IMG/VR virus record: IMGVR_UViG_3300020185_000033
Location: 1-64,000 of that record
Strand: one strand, 5' to 3'
DNA length: 64,000 nucleotides
Origin: a virus
Both the position numbers and the translations under genes were made by a program. Every line of letters begins with the position of its first letter. Positions within the stretch are counted from its first letter, which is position 1. The notes under the pieces are model-generated. The model saw nothing but the letters and a program-made list of their open reading frames with translations, did no database searches and was not told where the DNA came from. Shown piece after piece: positions 8,470-28,816 of the stretch.

Positions 8470-9219
8470 TTACATTCCTGCTAATTCAGTTTTAAATTTG
8501 TTGTAGTACTGCTCGTGTATAAAAGCATCAGCATGTAGCCAATCGGAAAAGTGATTAGCATGTGTATCCTTATACTGATCTACAAAACTGTCATACGGTT
8601 CAAAAAATGTATCAAACGGAAAAGATTCTTTTAGGTGTTCTATGTTTAAGAACTCCCATTGACCTTCATCCATCTTTGCACAACTATTTGTTTGTATATA
8701 CTCTACACCTGCCTTCTTTAGGAAAGTGTCTAGTAGAGTAATATTTATTACACGTTTTGTCATTCCGAAGTCAAAGTCGGTATGATATAGTTGCAATGCT
8801 TTGAACCAATTTTTAAAGTTAGGACCGTCACCGTCTCTATAAAAAGGTTTATAGTCACAGCCGTTTGCCCAATGATAATGTTGCGTATGTCCGTTATGTT
8901 CGTGTGTAAACTCTATACGTTCGTTTGTGCTCCATCCTATTACTACTAACAGTTCACTAGGATCTCTACCTTGTTGTAACCATTTAGAAACAAACTGCAT
9001 GGTGCTTCTAACTATGTATTCATTACTTGCTCCAGGCACACACTGATTAATATAATTTAGATTGTAATCGTCTGCAAGTAAGCCAGGCCATACTAAACTA
9101 ATTGCTTTATTAGTTCTAGCAGTATTACCTTGCTCAACTACTTCGCTACCCGCTAAGTGACTACAGCCGCTAACGTATAACCACTTCTTATTGCTTACGT
9201 CCAACCTAGTAACTCCCAT
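8470..9219 (-). CDS. SGNH/GDSL hydrolase-like protein (possible sugar acyl-esterase or transferase)
   Basis: Block I LYVSGCSH, block II INQCVPGASNEYI, C-terminal DWLH catalytic-like motif. Confidence 0.7.
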   Translation of the reverse strand: MGVTRLDVSNKKWLYVSGCSHLAGSEVVEQGNTARTNKAISLVWPGLLADDYNLNYINQCVPGASNEYIVRSTMQFVSKWLQQGRDPSELLVVIGWSTNERIEFTHEHNGHTQHYHWANGCDYKPFYRDGDGPNFKNWFKALQLYHTDFDFGMTKRVINITLLDTFLKKAGVEYIQTNSCAKMDEGQWEFLNIEHLKESFPFDTFFEPYDSFVDQYKDTHANHFSDWLHADAFIHEQYYNKFKTELAGM

Positions 9220-10496
9220 AGTTCAGGAATACTTTCCTTCATACTTTGTTCACGTTTACTATCAAGTAGCAATGTATATTCTTTAAACACTTGCATTTGT
9301 TCTTCACTGTCTTCGTTGTATGATTCTTTTAATGCTTTAATTAGTCCTAGTACTGTTTGCTTGTTACGTTCGTCAGCATCAAAGTACTTACTTGTTGCGG
9401 ACCATGTCTCTAATTGTTGTATAGCAACATCACGAACGTTCTGTGGTAAGTTTCTAATATCTAAACACTTTGGGTAGTTGTTTAATAAGAAACTTATATC
9501 AATCCTACGCCCACTCTCATTTGATATCTCTTCAGCATAGTCAAGTAAGTCTGTAATGTTTAGTATGTTATATATTTGTATAACAGGACTAAACAAAATA
9601 TTACCTACTACTTCAGAATCAGCATAGTCTCTGATGTGCTTGTCAATAACGCTCCATGTACTTCCACTTCTAATATAGTCGTTGTATTGAGCATAGCCGT
9701 CTACACTTAAACACATCAATACATCTCTAAACTGTCCTATAGTTTCTAAAAACCTAGGCTGTATATTAGTCATGTTACTGTTAAACACTAAGTCGATATC
9801 CTTTGCTATTCCGAGCTCGATGCATTTGTTGAGGATCCAATACACTCGCTGTATAATAGTGGGCTCACCGCCGGTGAAGTATAACCTGTTGACATTAGGC
9901 AACCATTCTTCGACTGTTGCAAGGAAGCTAGGATCATCAAACCAAGGCTGAGTATAATCACTGAAATCGCCCCAGTGACTTGTATCCACGACAAACTGTC
10001 TTTCTTTTTCGGTGTATAATTCTTCATCTTGTAACTCCTTGTAGATTGCACTACTGTTTTGACTTTGGCACATTCTGCATCTTAAGTTACATAGTGTTCC
10101 TAATCTAAAGTCTAAGTATTGCGGTGCTTCTTCTACAACATAATTATTATCAATACTCTTATCGACTATCTCTTTTACTTGCTTTGCATTTCTGTGGAAG
10201 CCCATCCAATCCTCAATATAGTTTTCTCTATAACTAGGAATGCCTAGGTCTTCTAATTCATAACAAGGCTGGCAACCATCTACACGATCACCTTCTATCA
10301 TCTGCTTTCTTATCTCTCTATAATGATTATTGTTCCACACTGTGGATATATCATCGCCTTTGTTAAGCATTAATATACTGCCGTCATCTTTTTTAATTTG
10401 ACCACTAGCAACACAGCATATATTAATAGTACTACTAGGCTGTGTCATAATGTGTATCCACGGATACGGACAGAATGTTTTACTATAACTTGTCAT
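9195..10496 (-). CDS. Radical SAM protein with N-terminal twitch/SPASM domain (copy 1)
   Basis: CNLRCRMC; FTGGEP; N-terminal FCPYPWIH...ICC...CQPC. Confidence 0.92.
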   Translation of the reverse strand: MTSYSKTFCPYPWIHIMTQPSSTINICCVASGQIKKDDGSILMLNKGDDISTVWNNNHYREIRKQMIEGDRVDGCQPCYELEDLGIPSYRENYIEDWMGFHRNAKQVKEIVDKSIDNNYVVEEAPQYLDFRLGTLCNLRCRMCQSQNSSAIYKELQDEELYTEKERQFVVDTSHWGDFSDYTQPWFDDPSFLATVEEWLPNVNRLYFTGGEPTIIQRVYWILNKCIELGIAKDIDLVFNSNMTNIQPRFLETIGQFRDVLMCLSVDGYAQYNDYIRSGSTWSVIDKHIRDYADSEVVGNILFSPVIQIYNILNITDLLDYAEEISNESGRRIDISFLLNNYPKCLDIRNLPQNVRDVAIQQLETWSATSKYFDADERNKQTVLGLIKALKESYNEDSEEQMQVFKEYTLLLDSKREQSMKESIPELWELLGWT

Positions 10497-11724
10497 GTTT
10501 ATTACCTGCTTTTAGAAACTGCATTTGCTCTTGCAACTCCATTATACCTTCCTTTTCAAACCAAGGTCTAACATACTTGTATAACTCAGGGAAGGTACTA
10601 GCAACACTCTCGTCTCTGTACCTATCACTGAATGCTGTTTGTCTTACAAACTCATCCATGTAGCCGTCATAGTCTTCTTGGTTCATAAAGTTTAATGTAC
10701 TTTGTATTCTAGGATCGCTGTGTGTCTTATACTTCTCTGTGATGGCTTCCTTTGCTTTCTTAGGCAATGCTTTAGGACTAATGTGTTGTGGTACATACAC
10801 CATATTGAAATGTATTTCAGTTTCGATATTGTGTTCCTTTTGGTACTCTAGTAACTCATCCATGTACATAATATTAAATATACTAACTGTGTAAAATATA
10901 TTTGTTCTTATAAAGTCTGTATTTTTAAACTTCCAATAGTTTTCCATTACTTCATCAAACTGTTGTGGATGTCTAATGTAATTAAACCTTTCACCTACAC
11001 CGTCTATACTAAAGAATACTTGCACATCTTTAAACTGTTTAAGCAAGTCCATGTGTTGTGCCGGGTATATAGAACCGTTAGTATTATAACTTAGTGTTAT
11101 ATCTTTTGCTCTGCCTTTATCTGCTAATGTTTGTAATATATCGAAATGTCTTTTAATTAAGAACGGCTCACCGCCAAAGAATTCCAAACTCTCTACTTCT
11201 TCGATTTGACTTTCTATATCGTCCCAGAACTTTTCATTTAGTTCGGGCCAACGTCCTAGCCTGCCCATTAGTTGTGCAAACTGATTAGACTCACCGTCAC
11301 GTTCTATTTCTTCCGGCACCCACTGACTACTTGCGAAGCCTGTGCATATTCTACACTTAGTATTACAGATGTTGCCTAGTTTCAAATCCATGCTCTTAGG
11401 TTTGGCATGCTCCAAGTTATCTACGTGGTGTGCAAACTTTCTAAGTTCTCGTAAACGTTTACTATCAATGCCTGCGTCTTCTTCGTTCCAGCAGTTGTAA
11501 CATGCCTTAGGCTTCTCTCCTGCTAAGAAGTCTTCCTTAAGGTCTGCTAACCATTTACTATCCCATGCATCCTTTAATGTAGCACCATCAGCCAAGTTCA
11601 TGTCTGGTACAGTTTCCTGCATAACACAGCACACACCAATCTCTCCGTTGGTACGAGCCTCTTGGTTTATCCAAGGTAGTATACAAAAATGTTCTGGTCT
11701 ATTCGCCAAAAGGTGCACCCTCAT
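10483..11724 (-). CDS. Radical SAM protein with N-terminal twitch/SPASM domain (copy 2)
   Basis: CNTKCRIC; FFGGEPF; YNTNG; SIDG; N-terminal FCILPW...VCC...CYNC. The start may be a slightly downstream TTG. Confidence 0.92.
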   Translation of the reverse strand: MRVHLLANRPEHFCILPWINQEARTNGEIGVCCVMQETVPDMNLADGATLKDAWDSKWLADLKEDFLAGEKPKACYNCWNEEDAGIDSKRLRELRKFAHHVDNLEHAKPKSMDLKLGNICNTKCRICTGFASSQWVPEEIERDGESNQFAQLMGRLGRWPELNEKFWDDIESQIEEVESLEFFGGEPFLIKRHFDILQTLADKGRAKDITLSYNTNGSIYPAQHMDLLKQFKDVQVFFSIDGVGERFNYIRHPQQFDEVMENYWKFKNTDFIRTNIFYTVSIFNIMYMDELLEYQKEHNIETEIHFNMVYVPQHISPKALPKKAKEAITEKYKTHSDPRIQSTLNFMNQEDYDGYMDEFVRQTAFSDRYRDESVASTFPELYKYVRPWFEKEGIMELQEQMQFLKAGNKHDKL

Positions 11725-12997
11725 TGTAGTATGAACTTATGTCGCTCAGCTCAGGGAACACTTCAAACAATGTCTCTGCTCTAAACCTGTCCATCTCTTT
11801 AGCCTCTTGCATACTGTCTGATAGTAAGTGGCTGTCGTCACCTTCCATAAACTGTAACAGGCTGTTGAATGTATCTGTTGCACGACCCACAGGGTCTTTA
11901 CCTTCGATCCATGCTAACGTTTCTTTAATCTGATTTATTGCTTTAGTTCGTAAATGTAGTGGTAATACTGTTGCTCTATGTACATGCTTACCTAGTAAAA
12001 TATTAACACCAAAGTCTTTTGGTTCTATAAATTCTATATCACATAACTTCCTATAAAAGTTGCATACGTCTAATACATTAAAAATACTAACCGTACAACT
12101 AATGTTAAAGTCGTGTTGCGGTAGCTCTTGCTTTAGACGTTCTCTATTTGCAAGTGTATCACTCCATATAGTTCCTTTACGCAAGTACTCGCCTTTCTCC
12201 CAGCCTGCATCTAAACTGGCTCCTATGCTAACATTCTTAAACTTCTTCCAGAGCTCAACGGCGTCTTCGTCTTTGTATGTTAGTTTACTAAAGTTGGTGT
12301 TGTAAAATATTCTTACATCTGTTCTGCCCATTTCTACTAACTTGTTCATGATGTACCAATGTTCATCCATTAGTAACGGCTCACCGCCTGCCCAATAAAT
12401 TTTCTCTACTGTGTGCAAGTACGGATCGAACTGTTCCATAAATGCAGTATTTCCTTTTCTTATTTGCAATATCTTTTGTTCAGGAGTTCTGTTAAATTTA
12501 CTGTCTACTGCCTCGTCGAACCATTGACTGCTTAAATCAGGTCCACATGTTCTGCAACGCATGTTACATATATTACTAAATCTGATATCCATATAAGTTA
12601 GATGTACATCATCTAAACTGCCGTCTTCTTTTGTCTCTTGTACAATATGCGACTTATCTTTGTGTAAGTCATACTTTTCAAATATGAATTCATCGTTGCT
12701 TCTCTTACGCAACGTATCATGTCCTACTTCTTCTAGCTCGTAACATCTATTACAGTTAGATACTTTCTTATTGTCGAGCATGTCTAATCTAAACGACTTC
12801 ATGTTATCACTGTTATAACATTCATCTAGGTCCATTTCGTTTAAGTTACCGATAGGTGCGTCATGCTCACTCAAGCAACATGTAAACACTCTGCCATCGG
12901 GCCAAGGGTGCATGTGTATCCAAGGTAGGATACAGAACGCATCGCCTTCTGCTAACTTTTTTATTTCTTCTACTGTTTTATTAATCTTATTATCCAT
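11699..12997 (-). CDS. Radical SAM protein with N-terminal twitch/SPASM domain (copy 3)
   Basis: CNMRCRTC; WAGGEPL; YNTN; N-terminal FCILPWIH...TCC...CNRC. ATG at 12997 preferred over track start 13021. Confidence 0.92.
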   Translation of the reverse strand: MDNKINKTVEEIKKLAEGDAFCILPWIHMHPWPDGRVFTCCLSEHDAPIGNLNEMDLDECYNSDNMKSFRLDMLDNKKVSNCNRCYELEEVGHDTLRKRSNDEFIFEKYDLHKDKSHIVQETKEDGSLDDVHLTYMDIRFSNICNMRCRTCGPDLSSQWFDEAVDSKFNRTPEQKILQIRKGNTAFMEQFDPYLHTVEKIYWAGGEPLLMDEHWYIMNKLVEMGRTDVRIFYNTNFSKLTYKDEDAVELWKKFKNVSIGASLDAGWEKGEYLRKGTIWSDTLANRERLKQELPQHDFNISCTVSIFNVLDVCNFYRKLCDIEFIEPKDFGVNILLGKHVHRATVLPLHLRTKAINQIKETLAWIEGKDPVGRATDTFNSLLQFMEGDDSHLLSDSMQEAKEMDRFRAETLFEVFPELSDISSYYNEGAPFGE

Positions 12998-13734
12998 GCG
13001 TTTAAATCCCATTCCCACCATTTCTCACCTTGATGCCAAGCACCAGGGTTGCGGTGATGATTATTGTGCCATCCTTCGCCAAACGTTATTAAGTTGACCA
13101 CGTGATGGTTAACACTTTTGTCTTGCGTGTCCCAAGTTCTATATCCTAAACTGCGTAACCCGTGCCCATGTCCCCATGTGTTAAAGGCACCTGTTGCCCA
13201 TACGCATAAACTTGCTGGTACAAGGTATGCATATATAATTAACATAGGATCTATAATTACTAGCAATGCTATATATAATAATATATATGCAAAAAAGTAT
13301 TTGTGAGCATTCATTACGTCTTTGTTCTTTATCCAGTCTTTAGCATTACGCAGATCCCAACGTCCTGTATCAGTTAAGTCTAATGTCCAACTGCGCCATG
13401 TACTCATATGATGTGGGCTGTGGGGGTCTAAAGCATCGTCTGTGTGCTTATGATGTTCTCTGTGGGTAACTATGTATCCAAACACACTACTAACACTTGC
13501 CAACGTGGCACTTAGTATTAACACCCTTTCCCAAAGTTTGCTTGTCTTAAATGTTTTATGAGCAAAGTATCTGTGTTGTCCAACACTGTTGCCTATACTT
13601 GCAAACCAAAAGTATGCCACAAGTGATACCCACAAGTAGTTACTTGGTCCTAGTACCACAGCCGTAGCAAGTCCTAGATGCATTAAGCATCTTAACACTA
13701 CGAGTTTAGGTCTAGTAAATGCTAGTATGTCCAC
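12970..13734 (-). CDS. Membrane fatty acid desaturase (delta-9/DesC-like)
   Basis: Three His boxes HRYFAH, HREHH and HNNHH; DPHSP; TFGEGWHNNHH; hydrophobic transmembrane segments. Confidence 0.93.
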   Translation of the reverse strand: MDILAFTRPKLVVLRCLMHLGLATAVVLGPSNYLWVSLVAYFWFASIGNSVGQHRYFAHKTFKTSKLWERVLILSATLASVSSVFGYIVTHREHHKHTDDALDPHSPHHMSTWRSWTLDLTDTGRWDLRNAKDWIKNKDVMNAHKYFFAYILLYIALLVIIDPMLIIYAYLVPASLCVWATGAFNTWGHGHGLRSLGYRTWDTQDKSVNHHVVNLITFGEGWHNNHHRNPGAWHQGEKWWEWDLNAWIIRLIKQ

Positions 13735-14956
13735 TTTCTTCTACCTTGTCTACAAGTTTACTGAATGCTTCTCTCCAGTTACTTTCATCATTCTTATCTA
13801 ATAAATCGTTATAACGACAAAACTGTTCCCACTTTAACTCGTCCCAGTCGCTGTTGTTAAACATGCTCAACAGTGTTCCTAGTTTGTGGTCATTGCCTAA
13901 TTCTTTTCTAAATTCTGTATGTATCAACTCTCGAGCCTTAACGGGTATAACCGCAGGACTTAGGTAATCAGGATCATACACGAAGTTCATGTCAACTTCT
14001 ATCCCATTCATCTCTGCCCATTTAAAAAACTCAGGCAACGTTGCATAATTGTATGCACTCACAGTTTGTGTTATTCTTAGAACTAACTTGTCTCTGTTTT
14101 GCTTTAAAGTTTCTATGGTCTTTAATACAGCATTCCAGTTAGTACCTGTTCGTATAAAAGCATTACGATCTTCTAGGTCGTCTATGCTTAAACATATTCT
14201 TGCTTCTTTGAACTCGGGCCACAGTTCTAAAGCAATAGGCGGTAGCATAGTGCAATTAATGTTGTACCATAGTATAACATTTTTACTTCTGCCACTGTCT
14301 ACTAATTTTTGTAAGTATGCCCAGTGTTGTTTAATTAATGTTGGCTCCCCTCCATTAATATATAGTAATTCTAAATTGGGTGCAGAGTCAAATAAATCAT
14401 CATAGAAGTTATCATCCTCTGCCCACTTAAAGTCTTCCGGAAAGTTTAATCCTAAGTAACCCTTGTTTATGAAGTCAGCCTTTTCAACAATGTCTTTATA
14501 ATCTTCGAGCCACTTTGAACTACTTGCTGGATTGCAAGTACGGCACCTAACGTTGCATACATTACCAAGCCTAAGCTCAACAAAACGCAAATCCATAGGT
14601 ATGCTCCCATCCTCACTAGTAAGTTTGGATGCCCAATCGGTGGTATTTTGTTTAAATACTTCGGTCTCATGTTGTCGTTTGCTTTTCACTCCTTTGTCTT
14701 CTTCCTCATAGCATCGCATACATGCTTTTGGTTTTTCGTCGTTTAGCATTTGCAGTCGAACTTCTTTATAGTAGTCACTATTCATATGCTGTTCAACTGA
14801 CTGCTTGTTTAAATCAAAGAATTGGTTATGGTCCTCCTTATAATTCCTTGCTCGATTCAAGCCATCAGTGTGATCACTTATACAACATAATGTTACACCA
14901 CCGTGTGGGTGTGTTGCTAAATGATTCCAAGGTAGTGGACAATATGTGTTACTCAA
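13712..14956 (-). CDS. Radical SAM protein with N-terminal twitch/SPASM domain (copy 4)
   Basis: CNVRCRTC; INGGEPT; N-terminal YCPLPWNH...LCC...CMRC. Confidence 0.92.
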   Translation of the reverse strand: MSNTYCPLPWNHLATHPHGGVTLCCISDHTDGLNRARNYKEDHNQFFDLNKQSVEQHMNSDYYKEVRLQMLNDEKPKACMRCYEEEDKGVKSKRQHETEVFKQNTTDWASKLTSEDGSIPMDLRFVELRLGNVCNVRCRTCNPASSSKWLEDYKDIVEKADFINKGYLGLNFPEDFKWAEDDNFYDDLFDSAPNLELLYINGGEPTLIKQHWAYLQKLVDSGRSKNVILWYNINCTMLPPIALELWPEFKEARICLSIDDLEDRNAFIRTGTNWNAVLKTIETLKQNRDKLVLRITQTVSAYNYATLPEFFKWAEMNGIEVDMNFVYDPDYLSPAVIPVKARELIHTEFRKELGNDHKLGTLLSMFNNSDWDELKWEQFCRYNDLLDKNDESNWREAFSKLVDKVEESGHTSIY

Positions 14957-16374
14957 TTGCTATACTCCCCTTGACTGACAGGCAGGAACCCTGCTGTCGA
15001 CACTGCTTCAAATTCTGCATCATAATCAAACTCATGTTTAATTAACTCATACAGTTCAGGGAAAACTTTAACAAAGTTTTCTTCTCGGTATATATCTCCT
15101 CCCACTATTTGAGATTTGAATATAGTCCATTTTTGCTGACTGCTACGCTCATCAAAGAACTTTAACTTTTCAGCATCAAATTTATTTTTTAAACTGCTAA
15201 CTACACTGTCGCCATTTACATATAGCGGTGAGTTCATAAAGTTTACTAGTGCATTGGCTTCTTCTCTGTACTGAGGTAACCAATCATATCTTAATAATTT
15301 ATCTGAAACCATCTTTTTCGCTGACTTCGGAAGTACTGGTGGCGATATCCATTTCGGATAGTGTACCGAATTATTCCAAATCTTAAAGTTAGGAAATGTA
15401 GTCTTAAAGTATTCGTGGAAGTCCGGCAAATATAAAATGTTCAGTGCGGTAACTGTGTGTGTTATTTGTACAAACACAGGGTGCTCACTGTTATGTAATT
15501 CATAATAGTAATCTAAATTTTGTTTTACTTCGTCCCACTTGCCTGGGTGCCTGAGGTACGTGAACTTATCTTCTACTCCGTCTATGCTAACACTAAATGC
15601 TATGTCCTTAAAGTTTTTAACCATCTTGTCTAGGAAATCTTTATCAGCAATAGTACCGTTAGTACTTAATGTTAATGCTACATTCTTTGACCTACCTGTG
15701 TCAATCAAATAATCCACAAACTGTTTGAACTCTTTCATATAGAAAGGCTCACCGCCCATTATTTCCATACGCATTACATCTTTAGTCCAGTCGTCCATTG
15801 TTTTCCAGAATGCACTACGCTCTATGTCGTTCATATTAATTTCAGCAGTTGTTTCCCAAAAAGGAATATTTCTGTCAATTGATTCTTCTCTCCACTTACT
15901 GCTGTAGTTTGTGTTGCAACTTCTACATTTTAAATTACATGTGTTATCAAATATTAACTGTACATCTATTAGTCTTTCAGGTTCAACGGAATAGTTAATA
16001 CAATCATCGCCATACCATTCTTTATAATAGTTATTGTACTGCTGTCGTTTAGACTCTTTTCCGTTGCTCTCATCTACCCAACACGTCTCACAGTTAGGAA
16101 TATCTTCGCCTCCACGAATTCTATTTCTCATGTTGGTCATTGTTTCGCTATTAAGTATTTCAAGCATCGAATGTTCACCTAGGTTAAAATCTTTGCCGTG
16201 TTTATCTTTAATTCTGTCTTTTGCAATACAGCAAGTTCTCACTGTGCCGCCAGGTTCATTACTAATATGACTCCATAGTAATGCACAGTATTTGAAATCC
16301 GGATCGAAATAATCCTTTGCATCAGCAGTGTCATACTCAAAACCGAACCTATTTATTTTTCGCGAAGTAGTCAT
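14953..16374 (-). CDS. Radical SAM protein with N-terminal twitch/SPASM domain (copy 5)
   Basis: CNLKCRSC; MGGEPF; STNG; SIDG; N-terminal YCALLWSH...TCC...CETC. Confidence 0.92.
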   Translation of the reverse strand: MTTSRKINRFGFEYDTADAKDYFDPDFKYCALLWSHISNEPGGTVRTCCIAKDRIKDKHGKDFNLGEHSMLEILNSETMTNMRNRIRGGEDIPNCETCWVDESNGKESKRQQYNNYYKEWYGDDCINYSVEPERLIDVQLIFDNTCNLKCRSCNTNYSSKWREESIDRNIPFWETTAEINMNDIERSAFWKTMDDWTKDVMRMEIMGGEPFYMKEFKQFVDYLIDTGRSKNVALTLSTNGTIADKDFLDKMVKNFKDIAFSVSIDGVEDKFTYLRHPGKWDEVKQNLDYYYELHNSEHPVFVQITHTVTALNILYLPDFHEYFKTTFPNFKIWNNSVHYPKWISPPVLPKSAKKMVSDKLLRYDWLPQYREEANALVNFMNSPLYVNGDSVVSSLKNKFDAEKLKFFDERSSQQKWTIFKSQIVGGDIYREENFVKVFPELYELIKHEFDYDAEFEAVSTAGFLPVSQGEYSN

Positions 16375-18131: not shown

Positions 18132-18132
18132 T

Positions 18133-19502: not shown

Positions 19503-19533
19503 TATTTATCATCTAAGTTAAACAGTGTTTTAA
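19503..19533 (-). promoter_or_regulatory. Late-type promoter GATAAATA (19503-19510) plus upstream 16-bp pseudo-palindromic box (19518-19533)
   Basis: Minus strand TTAAAACACTGTTTAA-N7-GATAAATA in the intergenic gap before the dehydrogenase; the same arrangement occurs at 38486 and 62344. Confidence 0.65.
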
Positions 19534-20663: not shown

Positions 20664-20667
20664 AACT

Positions 20668-21990: not shown

Positions 21991-23402
21991 CTGCTGTTAT
22001 GCTTCGGGTCTGTTCGTGTGTACCAATTATATAGTTCTTCGTCTGCACTGTATATGTCCTGTATAGTTAATGCTTCGCCTGGTGCTCCATCGTTTCGTAT
22101 TTCTGCAATAGTTTTTTGCCACTGTCTGCCGTTAAAGAACTGTTCTTCGTGTGTGTCCGGAAACTGTTCTGCAAACGTGGGTGTATTTAATATTGCCTCT
22201 AATTGTGCTATCACTGTGCTTTGTTTTTCTGTAACTATAGGGCGTAAGTCATTTAGTAAACTGTTTACTATCCTATCTAGTATATGCCTAGGCCAACTCA
22301 TAAAACTAAACACAATGTCAGGGTGGAATGCAAACATATTCTTTGTTTCTATTTTAACGTTAAGGTCTATAGCATACTGTACAAACTCGCGTAAGCCAAA
22401 TAGTCCCGGGCCTGTTAGTGTTAAGTCCATTAACATTTTACTGTCACCGCCTGGACATGCAACACCTTCTCTAAAGTTTTTATCCCACTCTTCCCAAACT
22501 AATCCTGTGCGAATAAACTCTCCGATTTTTCCAATGCCGTCTATACTAGCACACATAGTCCAATCTTTTGCTTGTGGTAACCAGTCATACAAATAATTTT
22601 TACCGTAGCGAACTCTACTTAGATTACTGTTGTAACGTAAGTGTACTTTGTTTAAGTTTCCATCTTCGGCAAGTCTAGCCATACTTTTCCAATGTATATC
22701 ATACATCAATGGCTCACCTCCTACCCAGTATATTTCTTCTACTGTGCCTGACTTAATGGCTTCCCAAAATTCTTCTTCTACTACTTCTTGCTGAAACTTT
22801 TGGATTATCTCTTTATTTTCCGGGACCATGAACGGCTGACTCTCCGGCGTCCAATGATCGTTCTGTCTCTTTTCTGTTTCCCATGCCGAGCTAAGTTGTT
22901 CACCACACATACGGCACTTAAAGTTACACAGATTGCTAACCCTATAATCAAAACTGATAGGGTCCATAGTTGTACTTCCATCATCGGTTGTCTCCTCAAA
23001 ACATTTGTCTATCTTGTCTTCAAATAAGAAGCCTGTAAACCACTGACGATATGTGCTTTGACTTAGTATACTGTCATTACAAACAGCACATTGCGGAATA
23101 GTTTCTCCAGCAAGTAGTTTAAGGCGTATGTCTCTCATATACTTACTGTTCCAATGTTCTTTTAAACTTATCGGCTGGTAGTCTGCAATAGTGCCACTCT
23201 CTTTAAATAAGCCTGTGCTTTCATCATTACTGGCATCAATGTACTGCTTTTGAAACTGGTGTTCTTCTCTACTAGCACAGCACATACGTCTTTCAGACTG
23301 CGGACTAATATATGTATGAGTCCATGGTGCTGTACAAAAAACTTTGTTCTCTGATTCTGGGTGCATAGAACCATGCTCCCATTTAGGTTTAACTCTTTTC
23401 AT
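21987..23402 (-). CDS. Radical SAM protein with N-terminal twitch/SPASM domain (copy 6)
   Basis: CNFKCRMC; WVGGEPL; YNSN; SIDG; N-terminal FCTAPWTH...MCC...CAVC. ATG at 23402 with GGAG RBS. Confidence 0.92.
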   Translation of the reverse strand: MKRVKPKWEHGSMHPESENKVFCTAPWTHTYISPQSERRMCCASREEHQFQKQYIDASNDESTGLFKESGTIADYQPISLKEHWNSKYMRDIRLKLLAGETIPQCAVCNDSILSQSTYRQWFTGFLFEDKIDKCFEETTDDGSTTMDPISFDYRVSNLCNFKCRMCGEQLSSAWETEKRQNDHWTPESQPFMVPENKEIIQKFQQEVVEEEFWEAIKSGTVEEIYWVGGEPLMYDIHWKSMARLAEDGNLNKVHLRYNSNLSRVRYGKNYLYDWLPQAKDWTMCASIDGIGKIGEFIRTGLVWEEWDKNFREGVACPGGDSKMLMDLTLTGPGLFGLREFVQYAIDLNVKIETKNMFAFHPDIVFSFMSWPRHILDRIVNSLLNDLRPIVTEKQSTVIAQLEAILNTPTFAEQFPDTHEEQFFNGRQWQKTIAEIRNDGAPGEALTIQDIYSADEELYNWYTRTDPKHNSR

Positions 23403-25071
23403 CGACTGCTCCACCAAGTCCATCTGTCTCGGTGTCCCAACCTATACTGCTACCTGATTTACGTTTGATATTCGGATTGTAGTCTGGATCATCTTTATAT
23501 TTTTCATCGTCGTAATCGTCATCGCTCTCACCTGTTTGACGTCCACGTACTTTCATTTCTACAACTTTAACTTCTCCATCCTCTGTAACAATACGTTTAG
23601 CATACAGTGTATTTGTTACACCAACACTATCCGGTGCTTGTATATCGTGGTCATCACTGATGTCTAAGACTTCAATACTGTCATACCATTCTGCAAGTCT
23701 TGGGAATGTTTCTTTAAAATTAAATCCTCGTCTTGCATCATACTGTTCATAAAATACTTTGAAGTCATGATGTAGTAAGTGTTGTTCTGCAGTATTTCTG
23801 TGCGGAGTCTTTACAACATCTAAGTATTCAATTAGTCTACTAATTTGATCTTGCTCCCACGGTTGCAATAATTCAGCGCCTGTGATTTCTGACTTCTCAC
23901 CTTTTGCTCTAACGTTATCTAGCCAATCACTAATTTCATCATGATACATTTTACGCAAGTGATCTGGTAATGTTAACGGACTTTGGAAACTAGGAAAACG
24001 TAATATGTTCACACTAATACCAGGTACATGATGTCCGTACTTACGTTTCATTTCTAATGTCCAATCCCAAAACTGCGTGATTGTGTCTAAGCATAAAGCA
24101 TTAATAGTCATCATACAATGTACACCTTCGAACCTTGCTTCACTGGCAAAACGTTCAAACTGTTTCGTCCATATGTCCCATTCCAGTCCGTCCCTAATGT
24201 ACTCTGCTTGTGCGCCAAAGGCTTCATTACTAGTGTACACATGGAAGTGTTCAATGTGTTGTGTTGCATCGATAAACCTATCGAGCAATGCTGGCTTAGC
24301 CATTAAGTTACTGTTAATTGCCAAACGCATTTTATGTTTGTTCGGATCATCAGACTCTTTAAACCAATCAAACAACTTATAAATTTCAGGAGTCATTAAT
24401 GGCTCACCGCCTGTAACTCTAATCTCTTCTAAGTCCTTACTTAGTTCGGGCCACCACTTCCAAAAAGCATCAACATAAGGATTAACATCACCGCGTTCAA
24501 ACGGCTCGGCATACGGAGCATCATCAATAAAGTGACCTCTTGCATCACTCTTAATACCTTGATATCCACCATTAGTTCTAATATCTTTAACCCATGTACT
24601 ACTAAATGCTGGGTTACAATAACTACATGCAAGTTGACATGTCCTATCAAAAGCAATTTCCATTGTTTTTAAATTAACATCTTCTTGCGGATCTAATGTT
24701 GCAATAAGATCCAAGTCATCGTCTTCGTAGATAACTGTCTTATAAACTCTGTCAGACACTGGCTCATTACCGTCTGAGTCTTGGCCCATGTCTTCTATCT
24801 TCCAACAGTACTCACACTCTTTTGGTCGATCACCTTTCTGCATCATATCACGCATCTTTTTCTTATGCCGTGTGTTATGAATAGCTGATGGATTTGTTTT
24901 AATTTCTTCTGTATCTATTTGGTGTGCCGGGGGATGATGGCAACTGGTTGTACCGCCATGGCCCAACCATATTGTTGCGTTAAACCACTTAGCTCCACAG
25001 AACGAATTACTAACAGGATCAATCTTCCGTGCTTTAAACTCTCTGTGTGTCTCTCCTACTTTTCTTACCAT
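23389..25071 (-). CDS. Radical SAM protein with N-terminal twitch-like domain (copy 7, AKW...CHHPP subtype), acidic C-terminal tail
   Basis: CQLACSYC; VTGGEPL; N-terminal FCGAKW...SCHHPP...CEYC. Confidence 0.92.
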   Translation of the reverse strand: MVRKVGETHREFKARKIDPVSNSFCGAKWFNATIWLGHGGTTSCHHPPAHQIDTEEIKTNPSAIHNTRHKKKMRDMMQKGDRPKECEYCWKIEDMGQDSDGNEPVSDRVYKTVIYEDDDLDLIATLDPQEDVNLKTMEIAFDRTCQLACSYCNPAFSSTWVKDIRTNGGYQGIKSDARGHFIDDAPYAEPFERGDVNPYVDAFWKWWPELSKDLEEIRVTGGEPLMTPEIYKLFDWFKESDDPNKHKMRLAINSNLMAKPALLDRFIDATQHIEHFHVYTSNEAFGAQAEYIRDGLEWDIWTKQFERFASEARFEGVHCMMTINALCLDTITQFWDWTLEMKRKYGHHVPGISVNILRFPSFQSPLTLPDHLRKMYHDEISDWLDNVRAKGEKSEITGAELLQPWEQDQISRLIEYLDVVKTPHRNTAEQHLLHHDFKVFYEQYDARRGFNFKETFPRLAEWYDSIEVLDISDDHDIQAPDSVGVTNTLYAKRIVTEDGEVKVVEMKVRGRQTGESDDDYDDEKYKDDPDYNPNIKRKSGSSIGWDTETDGLGGAVDEKS

Positions 25072-25672: not shown

Positions 25673-25680
25673 TATTTACT
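25673..25680 (-). promoter_or_regulatory. Late-type promoter AGTAAATA, 5 nt upstream of the SDR ATG
   Basis: Intergenic; same 5-nt spacing to ATG as three other copies. Confidence 0.5.
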
Positions 25681-25692
25681 CTATTGTGTTAT

Positions 25693-26793
25693 TTATTCAA
25701 ACAAATCTACGTTTTCCCATGGCATATTTTCTTTGCCAAAGTGTCCGTAGTTTGTGGTCCAACTAAGGTCTAAATTAAACAAATCAAACTTGTCTATGAT
25801 ACCTTTTGGTGTTAAGTCTACAAGTTGTCGTATTTCTTGTGTAATGTCGCTTCTGACTTCACCGTCAGCATATACATACACACTAGTTGGCTCTTTAACG
25901 CCAATAGCATAACTTAGTTGTACAGTACAGTTGTCTGCTTTACCTGATACTACAATGTTCTTTGCCAAGTAGCGAGCCATATATGCGGCTGATCTGTCGA
26001 CTTTAGTAGGGTCCTTACCGCTAAATGCACCGCCACCATGTGGAGCATACCCGCCATAAGTATCAACAATAATTTTCCGTCCAGTAAGTCCAGTATCTCC
26101 ATCCGGTCCTCCAATTACAAATTTTCCTGTTGGGTTAATTAAGTATTCGGTGTCATCGTCAACAGGAGCATTAACACCCTTCAATGCTATTTTAACAAAC
26201 GTTTCGATTGTTTCTCTAGTAACATCTAATGAAAACTCTTCTGTGTGCTGACTGCTACACACTACTCTACTAACTCGTAGAGGAGTATTAATGTCGCTAT
26301 ATTCCATTGTAACTTGCGCCTTACTGTCTGGACCAAGCCACAATTCCTTATCTCGTCTTCTTCCTTCTAGGTATTTTAATATTGCATGACTGTAATATAT
26401 TGCACTTGGCATGTGCGTGGGTGTCTCATTACATGCATACCCAAACATAATGCCTTGGTCTCCGGCACCAAAGTCATCTGTGCCTAATGCAATGTCGGGT
26501 GATTGTCCGTGTAGCTCATTGTAAACTTTTAGTGTGTCCCAATGAAAACCTTCTTGCTCGTAACCAATTTCTTTTACAGTATCTCTGACAATTTTTTCAA
26601 TAATTTCCTTGTCAAAGTTATCCGATTTATATTCGCCCGCCAACGTTACCATGTTGGTAGTTACAAGTGTTTCGATTGCCGCTCTATGAGTGGCGTTGTT
26701 GTTTAGTAAGTAAGTAGCAACTCTGTCTGAAATCAAGTCTGCTATCTTATCTGGGTGTCCAGTACTAACACTTTCGCTCGTAAATTCGTACAT
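25693..26793 (-). CDS. metK: S-adenosylmethionine synthetase
   Basis: FTSESVSTGHPDKIAD, GAGDQGIMFGYA, INPTGKFVIGGPDGDTGLTGRKIIVDTYGG, GGGAFSGKDPTKVDRSAAYMARY. Confidence 0.98.
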   Translation of the reverse strand: MYEFTSESVSTGHPDKIADLISDRVATYLLNNNATHRAAIETLVTTNMVTLAGEYKSDNFDKEIIEKIVRDTVKEIGYEQEGFHWDTLKVYNELHGQSPDIALGTDDFGAGDQGIMFGYACNETPTHMPSAIYYSHAILKYLEGRRRDKELWLGPDSKAQVTMEYSDINTPLRVSRVVCSSQHTEEFSLDVTRETIETFVKIALKGVNAPVDDDTEYLINPTGKFVIGGPDGDTGLTGRKIIVDTYGGYAPHGGGAFSGKDPTKVDRSAAYMARYLAKNIVVSGKADNCTVQLSYAIGVKEPTSVYVYADGEVRSDITQEIRQLVDLTPKGIIDKFDLFNLDLSWTTNYGHFGKENMPWENVDLFE

Positions 26794-26829
26794 TTATTTC
26801 TCCGTTATAGTTTATATAGAATAGTTATA

Positions 26830-27153
26830 CTATCTGACGAATAAGCCTTTAAGTTCTTTGCCTTTAGCCATGTCGCCGTTGAACGTCATTTTGCCGCCCA
26901 TTACCAATGATATAGGATTGCCACCTGCTAAGAACATTTCTAACAACGTGTCCTCATTAACAAACCCAACAGTGATATCTGATTTGTCTAACTGCTTGTG
27001 TGCAATACTAAATTCTTTGTCGTGAATACTAACAGAAAATTTACCGTTAGTCTCACTAATAACATTAATATTAATGTCAATATCAATACCATCTGCTTTT
27101 TGTACTTGGAAGTTTTCTTCCAATTGTGTTTTAATTTTATCGTAGTCTAACAT
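26830..27153 (-). CDS. SCP2 (sterol carrier protein 2)-like lipid-binding domain protein
   Basis: 107 aa; C-terminal NPISLVMGGKMTFNGDMAKGKEL fits the SCP2 pattern nP..afm.Gkl.i.Gd; AGGAG RBS. Confidence 0.7.
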   Translation of the reverse strand: MLDYDKIKTQLEENFQVQKADGIDIDININVISETNGKFSVSIHDKEFSIAHKQLDKSDITVGFVNEDTLLEMFLAGGNPISLVMGGKMTFNGDMAKGKELKGLFVR

Positions 27154-27178
27154 TATGTGTTCTCCTCTTGTATTGTGT

Positions 27179-28816
27179 TTACTCTAACAATGCATCTGCT
27201 TCCTCACAGATAAACCAGAAGTCGTGCATCTCTGGAAATGTTGCTAGGAAGTTTGTGTTTCTTCTTATGTCATGTTCTGTAAAAAATTTATAAAAATCTG
27301 CTCGGTCTCTTATTAATTTTTCATTTGATAACTCTACTTTCATAAAATCTAAATTTCTTTTTGCTTTTGCTATCTCAAAATCCTTGAAGCCTTTGTAGTC
27401 GACATAATCCTCATTGGCTTTGTTCTGCTCCATAAAGTCAATTGCTTCTTGCATATATTCTTGATACTGCCCAGGTAGTACTTGTATACTTTGCCACGCA
27501 GGAGCTCTGAGTAATGGAATGTCAAACCATATACGTTGCTCTGGAACTTCCCACCCCATTGCGTATTGATTCTCTTTACTCCATTTTTCTCTAAGCTCTA
27601 AAATTCCCTGCAAGAATTCTTTGAAACTTGTTACACTTAAACAATTAAATGTGTTAATAAAATTGATACTAGTGAATCTTGTTTCGTCTAAAAATCTATG
27701 ACAGTTGCTCCACACAGTCCAAAAGTCCATACCATTACGCATGTACTCTGCTTGTTCGCCCCAACCATCTAAACTACAGAATACACTAAAGTTATGATAT
27801 GCTTTATCATTGTATTCGTATATGTATGTGTAACTGTTATTGTCTTGTTCCTCACATTGTCCAACTTGCATAAACGTTTGTGGTATTTGTTCACGCTCTA
27901 TAACTGGTAGTTCGCTGTCATGATAACGTTTTGCATCAGCACCTATAATAGAATGTTGCCATGTCTGCCAGTCAGTGCCGTCTAATGGATCAGTAACATA
28001 TACCTCAGCACCATGTTGTACGTTGTCTAACTGCTTAACTGCATCTAAAAACTTAACAAACAATTTATCGTTGACAGGACACATGTTTGTTGTTATACTT
28101 AATTCTAAATCTTTATTTGGATTATCGTATACATAATCAAGTACCTTAAATGTATTCTTATCCATTAATGGTTCACCGCCTGTCATACGAAACACTCGTA
28201 GTGTTTTATACATCTCGGGCCACCATTTCCAAAAAGCAGTAACGTATGGGTTAGCATCCTGACTTACTTTAAGTGGCATAAGTCCTTTTTTGTTTAAACT
28301 GTTTATGTTGTTATGCGGTGCTGTAGTTGGATACTCACCGAACTCGTCAATCTCTTCTTGCCATGCAGTACTTAAATGCGGTGAACAATAACTACACTTA
28401 AAGTTACATGCTTGGTTAAAGTTTACTTCTACATAACGTGGATTGATGTTACCACTAGCACCAGCATCCATAATATCTTCTTTACTTTCCTGTGCCCAGT
28501 ATTCTCCACTGCGATATACCCTATCACTTCTGTCGCCTTGGTCTTCGATGTTCCAGCAATAACTACAACCGTCAGGCCTCTCACCTTTAAGCATTTGTCT
28601 TCGTTGTTCTTTCTTCTCTTCGGTGTTATGTAGTGCCGTAATATTTTTATCTAATTCATCTAACGGAATTTTATGTGTGGGAGGGTGATAACAACTGTGT
28701 GTCATACCATTCGTTAAATGCATAGACACTTGACTCCACTTAGCATAACACATGCTAGGACTAATATTGTCTAGTTGTTTTTTTGCCTTATCTGCGGCTT
28801 GATCGTATATGCTCAT
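27179..28816 (-). CDS. Radical SAM protein with N-terminal twitch-like domain (copy 8, AKW...CYHPP subtype) with internal insertion
   Basis: CNFKCSYC; MTGGEPL; TTN; SLDG; N-terminal MCYAKW...SCYHPP...CSYC. Likely start MSIYDQ at 28816 (TAATG overlap with the upstream small gene). Confidence 0.92.
   Translation of the reverse strand: MSIYDQAADKAKKQLDNISPSMCYAKWSQVSMHLTNGMTHSCYHPPTHKIPLDELDKNITALHNTEEKKEQRRQMLKGERPDGCSYCWNIEDQGDRSDRVYRSGEYWAQESKEDIMDAGASGNINPRYVEVNFNQACNFKCSYCSPHLSTAWQEEIDEFGEYPTTAPHNNINSLNKKGLMPLKVSQDANPYVTAFWKWWPEMYKTLRVFRMTGGEPLMDKNTFKVLDYVYDNPNKDLELSITTNMCPVNDKLFVKFLDAVKQLDNVQHGAEVYVTDPLDGTDWQTWQHSIIGADAKRYHDSELPVIEREQIPQTFMQVGQCEEQDNNSYTYIYEYNDKAYHNFSVFCSLDGWGEQAEYMRNGMDFWTVWSNCHRFLDETRFTSINFINTFNCLSVTSFKEFLQGILELREKWSKENQYAMGWEVPEQRIWFDIPLLRAPAWQSIQVLPGQYQEYMQEAIDFMEQNKANEDYVDYKGFKDFEIAKAKRNLDFMKVELSNEKLIRDRADFYKFFTEHDIRRNTNFLATFPEMHDFWFICEEADALLE

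What the first reader, a model, noticed from the sequence alone, without database searches (positions are those of the whole stretch)
9195..28816. Eight paralogous radical SAM enzymes with the auxiliary Fe-S (twitch) domain at the N-terminus
Seen: each has CxxxCxxC, GGEP and a C-terminal D..R.....FPEL-like tail (degenerate in copies 4 and 6), preceded by an N-terminal C-x2-[PKL]-W...C[C/xH]...CxxC module. Known: in anSME, PqqE, MoaA and BtrN the SPASM/twitch domain is C-terminal. I recall a function-unknown N-terminal-twitch family enriched in uncultured marine sequences, which needs confirming by HMM search. Inference: eight divergent copies in 20 kb imply sequential or site-specific reactions on related substrates, and the glycosyltransferase-rich neighbourhood is a functional clue for an orphan family.
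Basis: partly seen in the sequence, partly recalled or inferred. Interest (0 to 1): 0.85.

Follow-up and report, generated by a model that had tools for sequence, protein, structure and literature searches.

The report
Phage radical-SAM array in sugar-tailoring island
A fragment of an uncultured marine giant phage carries eight old, intact copies of a catalogued but never-tested iron-sulfur "radical SAM" enzyme, whose extra cluster-binding domain sits in front of the catalytic barrel; they lie among sugar-handling genes next to the tail genes and most likely edit a sugar decoration by chemistry nobody has assayed.

Summary
Eight minus-strand genes between 9195 and 28816 all match NCBIfam NF033640 (N_Twi_rSAM) at 300-364 bits, against a cut-off of 170. 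Each keeps CxxxCxxC, GGEP and four N-terminal cysteines. A profile of the N-terminal module hits only the BtrN twitch domain in the PDB (E 1.2e-5), and the four cysteines align with four BtrN cysteines.

The window is part of a T4-like marine jumbo phage of about 340 kb. The paralogs are 19-26% identical and each is under purifying selection. Their subfamilies are shared with Bdellovibrionota, where one chromosome carries a largely collinear array.

The sugar context recurs:
- Three window genes fold as GT-B glycosyltransferases.
- A carbamoyltransferase, a sugar-nucleotide dehydrogenase-like gene, a 2OG oxygenase, an SDR and MetK lie in the island.
- Ralstonia phage RsoM2USA has a collinear mini-module behind its baseplate genes.
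- Vibrio phage K566 interleaves family members with GT8 transferases.

Best reading (about 0.5): BtrN-like, SAM-consuming editing of sugars in a phage-built glycoconjugate. The substrate, product and acceptor are unknown.

No paper characterising the family was found. Earlier follow-ups in this scan reached the same reading on other phage DNA.

The parts
27179..28816 (-). Radical SAM paralog 8 (N_Twi_rSAM), with an insertion of about 77 aa in the barrel. An alternative TTG start lies at 28963.
   Evidence: NF033640 at 327.9 bits in two stretches. Alignment. About 46% identical over 272 aligned residues to RsoM2USA ORF349.
23389..25071 (-). Radical SAM paralog 7, with a C-terminal acidic tail of about 95 aa.
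   Evidence: NF033640 at 319.4 bits. 52% identical to RsoM2USA ORF202, E 2e-159.
21987..23423 (-). Radical SAM paralog 6 (C-terminal FPEL tail degenerate).
   Evidence: NF033640 at 300.3 bits. N-terminal Pfam SPASM match.
14953..16374 (-). Radical SAM paralog 5.
   Evidence: NF033640 at 302.1 bits. N-terminal Pfam SPASM match.
13712..14956 (-). Radical SAM paralog 4 (tail degenerate).
   Evidence: NF033640 at 355.5 bits. N-terminal Pfam SPASM match.
11699..13021 (-). Radical SAM paralog 3, the copy that was modelled.
   Evidence: NF033640 at 364.1 bits. AlphaFold2 pLDDT 94.8, pTM 0.91. Fold matches are to the generic radical SAM core.
10483..11724 (-). Radical SAM paralog 2.
   Evidence: NF033640 at 348.3 bits.
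9195..10496 (-). Radical SAM paralog 1.
   Evidence: NF033640 at 339.6 bits.
25693..26793 (-). S-adenosylmethionine synthetase (MetK).
   Evidence: All three Pfam S-AdoMet_synt domains, E 2e-29 to 7e-56. Present in only 7 of 29 related phage records.
25071..25667 (-). Short-chain dehydrogenase/reductase-like protein.
   Evidence: Pfam adh_short, E 5.8e-7.
26830..27153 (-). SCP2-like small protein of 107 aa.
   Evidence: Pfam SCP2, E 4e-7.
18133..19452 (-). UDP-glucose/GDP-mannose dehydrogenase-like protein.
   Evidence: Pfam UDPG_MGDP_dh and its N-terminal domain. Homologs lie next to family members in Bacteroidota loci.
17340..18215 (-). 2OG-Fe(II) oxygenase.
   Evidence: Pfam 2OG-FeII_Oxy_3, E 6e-12.
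16349..17356 (-). Aminotransferase class I/II-like protein (weak).
   Evidence: Pfam Aminotran_1_2, E 4.6e-5, 23.2 bits.
12970..13734 (-). Membrane fatty-acid-desaturase-like di-iron protein.
   Evidence: Pfam FA_desaturase, E 1.4e-12.
19542..21990 (-). Two GT-B glycosyltransferase-like paralogs (19542-20663 and 20668-21990), members of the family labelled c42 in this report.
   Evidence: Same family as 32044-33303 by jackhmmer. Family alignment A5. Fold evidence.
32044..33303 (-). GT-B glycosyltransferase-like protein, the modelled member of family c42.
   Evidence: AlphaFold2 pLDDT 74.6. Nearly all Foldseek matches at E <= 1e-3 are GT-B transferases: BshA at 1.2e-5, TarM, GtfA, PglA and a phage HY126 transferase.
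28971..29996 (-). Possible GT-A-like protein (family c40). This is a lead only.
   Evidence: The automatic name of its own cluster in the protein atlas is 'glycosyltransferase 2-like'. hhalign against a GT2 alignment gives P 0.006. 52% identical to RsoM2USA ORF350.
30596..31480 (-). Possible GT8-like (GT-A) protein (family c39); its paralog is 33490-34374. This is a lead only.
   Evidence: hhalign against the two K566 GT8 proteins gives P 3.5e-4 over 146 columns, with controls at 0.4-0.8. 38% identical to RsoM2USA ORF352.
33490..34374 (-). Second c39 paralog.
   Evidence: jackhmmer. 33% identical to RsoM2USA ORF353.
6688..8256 (-). NodU/CmcH-type carbamoyltransferase.
   Evidence: Pfam Carbam_trans_N and Carbam_trans_C, E 2e-38 and 8e-52. 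43% identical to RsoM2USA ORF199, which lies beside rSAM ORF202.
8470..9219 (-). DUF6071 protein. Its GCSH motif resembles SGNH hydrolases, which is my inference.
   Evidence: Pfam DUF6071, E 4.5e-11. Homologs flank RsoM2USA ORF202.
1849..6423 (-). Protein of 1524 aa related to c40. Only its C-terminal unit matches the full c40 profile.
   Evidence: jackhmmer. Domain table: only residues 1288-1523 cover more than 150 profile positions.
19503..19533 (-). Promoter-like motif TTAAAAC-N-GATAAATA inside the island.
   Evidence: Three matches in the window, all on the minus strand and intergenic (19503, 38486, 62344), against 0.02 expected.

Best explanation
The eight genes encode active radical SAM enzymes of the catalogued but uncharacterised family NF033640.

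Inferred mechanism:
- Each enzyme binds SAM on a [4Fe-4S] cluster held by CxxxCxxC.
- A second [4Fe-4S] cluster is held by four cysteines of a twitch domain that is homologous to BtrN's but placed before the barrel instead of after it.
- The 5'-deoxyadenosyl radical abstracts a hydrogen atom from a carbohydrate carbon.
- The four-cysteine auxiliary cluster takes the electron, as proposed for BtrN. This gives keto-sugars or rearranged, epimerised or decarboxylated sugars.

Each paralog would handle a different sugar or position. Neighbouring enzymes would then elaborate the sugars: an aminotransferase-like protein, an SDR, a 2OG oxygenase, a dehydrogenase, a carbamoyltransferase and DUF6071. 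GT-B and GT-A-like proteins would transfer them. MetK would resupply the SAM, which is consumed stoichiometrically.

The acceptor is most likely a baseplate or fibre protein of the virion, or else the host envelope.

Shown here: family membership, intact motifs, twitch homology, purifying selection, and a gene neighbourhood that recurs in other lineages.
Inferred: cluster binding, the carbohydrate substrate, the reaction type and the acceptor.
For: Family membership and motifs.

Twitch homology:
- The profile of the N-terminal module hits only BtrN in the PDB (4m7s residues 166-243, E 1.2e-5).
- Four BtrN cysteines align with the four conserved cysteines.
- PMC9012708 states that BtrN's auxiliary cluster has four Cys ligands and that BtrN performs a two-electron oxidation.

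Fold and selection:
- The model is confident, pLDDT 94.8.
- Its core is most like BlsE, anSME, viperin, CteB, SkfB and MoaA, at Z 11.3-12.6.
- dN/dS is 0.05-0.19 for every paralog.
- Each paralog has well-supported orthologue clades in other phages.

Sugar context in the window:
- GT-B fold for the c42 family.
- Carbamoyltransferase, UDPG dehydrogenase-like protein, 2OG oxygenase, SDR and MetK.

Independent lineages:
- RsoM2USA ORF354-347 is collinear with window 34732-27179 and lies behind baseplate and virion protein genes.
- RsoM2USA ORF203-199 links the family with DUF6071 and a carbamoyltransferase.
- Vibrio phage K566 interleaves four family genes with two GT8 genes, near LpxC-like and PagP genes.

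Bacterial loci hold ABC-2 exporters, GT1, GT2, GT-C, an epimerase, a UDPG dehydrogenase, a nucleotidyltransferase, GDSL and PhyH.

One natural fusion joins the family to a GT2 domain.
Against: - No member of the family has been assayed, and no paper on it was found.
- Fold matches are ties among generic radical SAM cores. They include peptide maturases (CteB, SkfB, anSME), so they do not single out a sugar enzyme.
- In bacterial loci only about 8 of the 128 nearest neighbouring genes are glycosyltransferases, and many neighbours have no annotation.
- The GT2 fusion is a single sequence.
- The c39 and c40 assignments are weak leads.
- Lipid-flavoured neighbours are compatible with a lipid or glycolipid substrate: desaturase, SCP2, UbiA, PhyH, GDSL, and in K566 PagP and LpxC.
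- I could not read the model's coordinates, so the geometry of the four cysteines was not measured.
Confidence: 0.5

Rival explanations
1. The enzymes modify a protein or peptide, as most SPASM/twitch enzymes do: cross-links, epimerisation or formylglycine-type oxidation. The target would be virion fibre or baseplate proteins, or a small precursor. The transferases would then glycosylate the same target.
For: - The best sequence matches of the core in the PDB are the peptide maturases SkfB (1e-9) and TigE (5e-9).
- Foldseek's top hits are CteB and anSME.
- The island lies directly behind the tail-fibre-like gene, the 6342-aa ORF and the baseplate wedge gene. The same is true in RsoM2USA.
- A conserved acidic 71-aa ORF fills the only gap in the island, at 8253-8468.
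- Some family members carry TPR repeats.
Against: - Pfam finds no PqqD/RRE-type recognition domain in any copy or neighbour.
- The 71-aa ORF has no cysteine and no repeated core.
- The nearest relative of the twitch module is BtrN, a sugar-type (aminocyclitol) dehydrogenase.
- The partners that recur across lineages are sugar enzymes, not peptidases or peptide exporters.
Confidence: 0.2
2. The island remodels the host envelope (LPS, capsule or a glycolipid) during infection rather than the virion, for example to block superinfection or to stop progeny from sticking to debris. The radical SAM enzymes would act on lipid-linked sugars or on the lipid itself.
For: - In K566 the family genes sit with GT8 (the family that includes LPS-core transferases), an LpxC-like deacetylase (E 1e-40) and an annotated PagP.
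- The window holds a membrane desaturase-like protein and an SCP2-like protein.
- Bacterial loci hold ABC-2 exporters, UbiA, PMT_2/GT-C, GDSL and PhyH.
- The tetraether lipid synthase GDGT-MAS is among the core matches.
Against: - In the window and in RsoM2USA the module is embedded in the structural gene block.
- It shares a promoter-like motif with the structural genes.
- No flippase, polymerase or exporter gene was found in the window.
Confidence: 0.2
3. The transferases and radical SAM enzymes hypermodify the phage DNA with unusual sugars. T-even-like phages are known to glycosylate hydroxymethylated bases.
For: - The phage is T4-like (baseplate wedge phrog_10646).
- The transferases are soluble GT-B proteins.
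- Virus-encoded transferases that hypermodify DNA with diverse glycans are cited in PMC12619734.
Against: - The island is co-oriented with late structural genes and shares their motif.
- Collinear arrays lie in bacterial chromosomes beside Obg and L21, and other members lie beside exporters.
- No DNA-modification enzyme was identified in the island.
Confidence: 0.07

Closest known systems
NCBIfam NF033640, N_Twi_rSAM (twitch domain-containing radical SAM protein)
   Same: All eight copies match the whole model far above its cut-off. They have the same architecture: an N-terminal four-Cys module, then CxxxCxxC, GGEP and the C-terminal D..R..FPEL region.
   Different: Nothing structural. The family itself has no assigned function. 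Here it occurs as eight ancient paralogs in a phage island that also encodes its own MetK.
BtrN (2-deoxy-scyllo-inosamine dehydrogenase, butirosin pathway; PDB 4M7S/4M7T)
   Same: It is the only solved protein whose sequence matches the N-terminal module (E 1.2e-5). Four BtrN cysteines align with the four conserved cysteines. It is a radical SAM core with one auxiliary cluster.
   Different: BtrN's twitch domain follows the barrel, whereas here it precedes it. BtrN is about 250-270 aa, and these proteins are 413-560 aa with a long helical C-terminal region. Core identity is low. The substrate here is unknown.
anSME, CteB and SkfB (SPASM/twitch peptide-modifying radical SAM enzymes)
   Same: They are among the best fold and sequence matches of the core.
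   Different: Their auxiliary domains are C-terminal. anSME and CteB hold two auxiliary clusters. They act on peptides that have recognition elements, and none was found here.
BlsE and DesII (radical SAM enzymes acting on sugar or nucleoside-sugar substrates)
   Same: BlsE is the top structural match of the core (Z 12.6, rmsd 3.4 over 217 residues) and DesII is also listed. The context is carbohydrate tailoring.
   Different: The scores tie with unrelated radical SAM enzymes. No domain homologous to the N-terminal twitch was seen in these matches.
Virion glycosylation systems of viruses (mycobacteriophage capsid and tail glycans; giant-virus fibril glycans)
   Same: Virus-encoded transferases and sugar-tailoring genes lie next to structural genes. 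Mycobacteriophage virion glycans are described in PMC12619734. The giant-virus case is from my own knowledge.
   Different: As far as I know and could search, none of those systems is reported to include radical SAM enzymes. Glycosylation of this phage's virion is not shown.

Membership tests
NCBIfam NF033640 (N_Twi_rSAM) | Whole-protein HMM score above the curated cut-off of 170 bits, with full-length coverage | tested here: met
   300.3-364.1 bits for all eight copies, covering model positions from about 1 to about 397. Copy 8 matches in two stretches around an insertion.
NCBIfam NF033640 (N_Twi_rSAM) | The twitch-like Cys module lies N-terminal to the radical SAM core | tested here: met
   Invariant C9, C28, C75 and C78 (copy 1 numbering) lie upstream of C136/C140/C143. 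Pfam places SPASM at residues of about 6-116 in four copies.
Radical SAM superfamily (PF04055) | CxxxCxxC cluster motif and the GGE SAM-binding motif | tested here: met
   Both are invariant in all eight copies and in the 104-sequence alignment. PF04055 matches all eight, six of them above the gathering score.
Radical SAM superfamily (PF04055) | Reductive cleavage of SAM to the 5'-deoxyadenosyl radical | not testable with these tools
   Needs anaerobic reconstitution and a 5'-dAdo assay.
Twitch domain (BtrN type) | Sequence homology to a solved twitch domain | tested here: met
   The profile of 61 N-terminal modules hits BtrN 4m7s residues 166-243 at E 1.2e-5. The other listed matches are at E 0.2 (a zinc-finger protein) and 0.69 (ChlB).
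Twitch domain (BtrN type) | Four (or three) Cys that ligate one auxiliary [4Fe-4S] cluster | tested here: inconclusive
   Four conserved Cys align with four BtrN cysteines, at chain positions of about 169, 187, 232 and 235. BtrN's cluster has four Cys ligands (PMC9012708). That the aligned residues are those ligands rests on my memory of the structure. Metal binding was not tested, and the model's coordinates could not be read.
Twitch domain (BtrN type) | The domain is a C-terminal extension of the barrel | tested here: not met
   The module lies at residues of about 1-110, before the CxxxCxxC. PMC9012708 describes SPASM and twitch domains as C-terminal extensions.
SPASM domain (two auxiliary clusters) | Seven or eight conserved Cys that bind two auxiliary clusters | tested here: not met
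   Only four (five with the CC pair) conserved Cys lie outside the SAM-cluster triad.
RiPP-maturing radical SAM enzymes | A recognition element (PqqD/RRE) and an adjacent precursor peptide gene | tested here: inconclusive
   No PqqD-like Pfam match in the copies or their neighbours. The only small ORF in the island is a conserved acidic 71-aa ORF without Cys.
Glycosyltransferase GT-B fold (for neighbours 19542-20663, 20668-21990, 32044-33303) | Two-Rossmann GT-B fold | tested here: met
   The AlphaFold2 model of 32044-33303 (pLDDT 74.6, with a confident core) gives Foldseek matches that are almost all GT-B transferases at E 1e-5 to 1e-3. There is no Pfam or PDB sequence match.

The most novel reading that the evidence does not exclude
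N_Twi_rSAM enzymes are a large, unrecognised class of carbohydrate-radical enzymes: about 7,300 clusters at 50% identity score E < 1e-30. Jumbo phages would use ordered sets of them, together with their own transferases and in some lineages their own SAM synthetase, to build a radically edited glycan. The glycan would go on their baseplate or fibre proteins, or on the host envelope. It would be an oxygen-independent virion-decoration pathway not described for any virus, inherited as an ordered, largely collinear module shared with predatory Bdellovibrionota.
Probability: 0.35. Interest if true: 0.85.

Novelty: new variant of a known kind. Interest (0 to 1): 0.7.

Why it matters
Radical SAM enzymes with SPASM or twitch domains are a major source of new chemistry. 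This permuted family is very large:
- About 7,300 clusters at 50% identity score E < 1e-30.
- 22% of the Bdellovibrionota genomes sampled carry it.
- Each related phage record carries 5-12 matches to the family model.

No member has a known reaction. A phage that spends about 11 kb on eight such enzymes (two iron-sulfur clusters each if the module binds one, as inferred), in a marine setting, must gain something substantial.

If the product is a glycan on the virion or on the host surface, it would add a new layer to phage-host recognition and a new set of sugar-editing reactions.

Three cultured systems carry family members, which makes the question testable: Ralstonia phage RsoM2USA, Vibrio phages K566/K567 and Halobacteriovorax sp. 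HLS.

Tried and rejected
A closer subset, A3, worked.
- The genome search draws no relatives for a virus record.
- Megablast of the island against cultured phages found nothing.
- Fold searches of the modelled paralog gave only tied, generic radical SAM cores. No solved structure has the whole architecture.
- The model's coordinates cannot be read in the script box, so Cys-Cys and cluster-cluster distances were not measured.
- The plain T4 late promoter TATAAATA is not enriched: 4 found, 8.5 expected. Sigma-70-like sites and terminators are at chance level.
- The c42 profile has no sequence match in the PDB.
- hhalign of c40 against GT2 is only suggestive, P 0.006.
- The protein atlas gave only automatic names or weak leads.
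- The family-GT2 fusion P0168 is a singleton and may be a gene-calling artefact.
- MetK is not a constant partner: 7 of 29 records.
- No psbA and no flavodoxin were found in the near-complete relative, so there is no host clue and no phage-encoded reductant.
- The 'moraphage' paper describes a different lineage.
- Literature searches for the family name, and for radical SAM in jumbo phages or polysaccharides, found no characterisation.
- Contigs from metatranscriptome libraries cover the island, but DNA carry-over cannot be excluded, and contigs give neither strand nor level.
- Two 'bacterial' hits are probably phage DNA binned into MAGs. These are L030, and L039/L052, which share tail-fibre-like and island genes. 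They were not counted as cellular.

Full report
THE OBSERVATION

The region 9195-28816 holds eight minus-strand ORFs of 413-560 aa. All eight match NCBIfam NF033640, 'twitch domain-containing radical SAM protein' (N_Twi_rSAM), over the whole 398-position model. Scores are 300-364 bits against a curated cut-off of 170. The next-best families score 15-40 bits, against cut-offs of 130-855 (repeated on the DNA).

Pfam finds Radical_SAM in all eight and the SPASM model at the N-terminus of four. The paralogs are only 19-26% identical. These features are invariant: an N-terminal C-x3-W, one Cys of a CC/SC pair, a CxxC, the CxxxCxxC triad and GGEP. The D..R.....FPEL tail is kept in six copies and is degenerate in copies 4 and 6.

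THE N-TERMINAL MODULE

I built a profile from 61 N-terminal modules, taken from the window, related phages and bacteria. In the whole PDB it matches only the twitch domain of BtrN (4m7s residues 166-243, E 1.2e-5). The other listed matches are at E 0.2 and 0.69. The whole-protein profile gave the same placement.

In the printed alignment, four BtrN cysteines fall on the four conserved cysteines of the module. Their chain positions are about 169, 187, 232 and 235, which I recall as the auxiliary-cluster ligands. PMC9012708 states three relevant points:
- BtrN's auxiliary [4Fe-4S] cluster is ligated by four cysteines, and BtrN performs a two-electron oxidation.
- MoaA has three Cys ligands and an open iron site.
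- SPASM and twitch domains are C-terminal extensions.

PMC9477430 notes that some members of the SPASM/twitch megacluster have conserved Cys N-terminal to the barrel, with no structures available.

So the module is a genuine twitch homolog in a permuted position, with the four-Cys pattern of BtrN. Actual cluster binding is inferred.

STRUCTURE

AlphaFold2 of copy 3, with a 104-sequence alignment, gave pLDDT 94.8 and pTM 0.91. The secondary structure of the N-terminus is a beta-hairpin between the first two Cys positions, then helices carrying the CxxC. From memory, this matches the twitch topology.

Fold searches align only the barrel (model residues of about 140-395). They give tied matches: BlsE Z 12.6, anSME 12.3, viperin 11.8, CteB 11.7, SkfB 11.7 and MoaA 11.3. 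Foldseek puts CteB, anSME, viperin and SkfB at E 1e-6 to 1e-5. These confirm a radical SAM core but do not indicate a substrate. I could not read the coordinates to measure the cysteine geometry.

THE GENOME

The window is the first 64,000 bases of a 75,829-bp IMG/VR virus record that CheckV estimates at 21% complete. Its features:
- A T4-type baseplate wedge gene at 57555-61964 (phrog_10646), a 6342-aa ORF at 38521-57549 and a tail-fibre-like gene at 35874-37838.
- Nearly all long ORFs up to about 62.4 kb lie on the minus strand.
- Identical or near-identical proteins lie on metagenome contigs of up to 328-346 kb.
- The stretch occurs at near identity in marine metagenomes of at least nine studies.
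- No psbA and no flavodoxin were found in a 91%-complete relative.

Twenty-nine related IMG/VR records each give 5-12 matches to the family model.

AGE AND ORIGIN OF THE PARALOGS

Every paralog has well-supported orthologue clades in other phages. The paralogs are interspersed with cellular members, and well-supported branches force at least seven phage/cell changes (a FastTree tree, so deep joins are unsure). dN/dS against phage orthologs is 0.05-0.19 for each copy, with dS saturated.

A Bacteriovoracaceae contig carries an eight-gene array. It is cellular, because Obg and ribosomal protein L21 lie next to the array. The nearest window paralogs of its genes run 7, 6, 4, 3, 2, 8, 7, 8. The first five are collinear with the window's order 7, 6, (5), 4, 3, 2.

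The family is large. A profile of the eight copies finds 7,299 clusters at 50% identity with E < 1e-30, including tandem fusions of two or three copies. Its prevalence:
- 45 of 201 sampled genomes in the phylum of that contig, which is Bdellovibrionota by record title.
- 3 of 301 genomes in the phylum of a Geminicoccales genome.
- None of 14 model organisms.

Copy numbers per bacterial genome range from 1 to at least 42.

WHAT TRAVELS WITH THE FAMILY

In the window, the island also holds:
- MetK and an SDR.
- An SCP2-like protein.
- A membrane desaturase-like protein.
- A weak aminotransferase-like protein.
- A 2OG-Fe(II) oxygenase.
- A UDP-glucose/GDP-mannose dehydrogenase-like protein.
- A NodU/CmcH carbamoyltransferase.
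- A DUF6071 protein.

No neighbour hits a Pfam glycosyltransferase model. Three paralogous neighbours (19542-20663, 20668-21990 and 32044-33303) form a family whose AlphaFold2 model matches almost exclusively GT-B glycosyltransferases.

Two further families are GT-A-like by weaker evidence:
- c40: 28971-29996 and the C-terminal unit of the 1524-aa protein.
- c39: 30596-31480 and 33490-34374.

Independent lineages give the strongest support.
- Ralstonia phage RsoM2USA is cultured and has a 343,806-bp genome. Its ORF354-347 are homologs, in the same order, of window 34367-34732, c39, c39, c40, rSAM copy 8, a c40 unit and 1044-1736. They lie just downstream of its baseplate wedge, a 2541-aa protein detected in virions and the tail sheath (PMC8504454). 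This mirrors the window.
- Its second family gene, ORF202, is 52% identical to copy 7. It is flanked by DUF6071-like genes and a carbamoyltransferase that is 43% identical to the window's.
- Vibrio phage K566 has four family genes interleaved with two GT8 transferases and a weak GT4-like gene. An LpxC-like deacetylase and an annotated PagP lie nearby.

In truly cellular loci the recurrent neighbours are ABC-2 exporter pairs, GT1, GT2, PMT_2/GT-C, an NAD epimerase, a UDPG dehydrogenase, a nucleotidyltransferase, UbiA, GDSL, PhyH arrays and further family members. Among the 128 nearest neighbouring genes of 38 loci, about 8 are glycosyltransferases, 5 are PhyH and 5 are GDSL. One natural fusion joins the family to a GT2 domain, but it is a single sequence.

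EXPRESSION

The motif TTAAAAC-N(14-22)-GATAAATA occurs three times, against 0.02 expected. All three are on the minus strand and intergenic. One is inside the island (19503-19533) and two are ahead of structural genes. There is no excess of sigma-70-like sites or terminators. Short contigs from four metatranscriptome libraries cover the island, but DNA carry-over cannot be excluded.

INTERPRETATION

What is shown: eight intact, selected, anciently diverged members of NF033640, with a BtrN-type twitch module at the N-terminus, in an island of sugar-handling genes beside the tail genes of a marine jumbo phage.

What is inferred: the enzymes abstract hydrogen from carbohydrate carbons and pass the electron to the four-Cys auxiliary cluster, as in BtrN. 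Each paralog serves a different sugar or position. The products are further aminated, reduced, carbamoylated or acylated, and then transferred to virion fibre or baseplate proteins or to the host envelope.

I put about 0.5 on carbohydrate editing in general and less on any particular acceptor. Three rivals are not excluded and are listed with their tests:
- Protein or peptide modification.
- Remodelling of host envelope or lipid.
- DNA glycan hypermodification.

PRIOR WORK

No paper in the held library characterises the family.

Earlier follow-ups of this scan reported the same kind of island on other phage DNA and reached the same reading. I treat them as agreement, not as evidence.

- The collinear modules in cultured RsoM2USA.
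- The GT8, LpxC and PagP context in K566.
- The prevalence figures.
- The alignment of the conserved cysteines with BtrN's.

Noticed in passing
window 8253-8468 (-): An acidic 71-aa ORF without cysteine exactly fills the only sizeable gap in the island, between the DUF6071 gene and the carbamoyltransferase gene. It is conserved at the same place in related phages (44-79% identity); in more distant ones only a 29-residue segment matches. Its function is unknown.
   Followed up: partly
window 38521-57549 (-): A single 6342-aa ORF lies between the baseplate wedge gene and the fibre-like genes. The only Pfam match is a YHYH domain at residues of about 1282-1451 (E 9e-36). RsoM2USA has a 2541-aa virion protein in the same position. 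It is a candidate acceptor of the island's product.
   Followed up: partly
window 19503-19533, 38486-38517, 62344-62375 (-): The bipartite motif TTAAAAC-N(14-22)-GATAAATA occurs three times against 0.02 expected, always intergenic and on the coding strand. Plain TATAAATA is not enriched.
   Followed up: partly
window 27179-28816 (-), residues of about 270-350: Paralog 8 carries an insertion of about 77 aa inside the barrel that the other seven lack. Paralog 7 has a C-terminal acidic tail of about 95 aa.
   Followed up: no
L039 and L052 (contigs of 183 and 148 kb in a 'Haliscomenobacter' genome bin); L030 (14-kb contig in a 'Gammaproteobacteria' genome bin): These contigs of bacterial genome bins share many island genes with the window, and L039 also shares a tail-fibre-like C-terminus. 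They are probably phage or prophage DNA binned with bacteria.
   Followed up: partly
G040 (Elusimicrobia genome bin; loci L046, L053, L054, L096 and others): One 2.9-Mb genome bin gives at least 42 matches to the family. Many are in tandem and lie in open frames of 600-1200 aa. This is an extreme expansion.
   Followed up: no
L072, L074, L083 (Bacteroidota loci): Arrays of up to ten phytanoyl-CoA-dioxygenase-like (PhyH) paralogs lie beside a single family member, a UbiA prenyltransferase, GT1, an epimerase, a UDPG dehydrogenase and an ABC-2 exporter.
   Followed up: no
window 1849-6423 (-): This 1524-aa protein is related to the stand-alone gene 28971-29996, but only its last unit (residues 1288-1523) covers the full profile. 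Long homologs of 1000-1360 aa are present in most related phage loci.
   Followed up: partly
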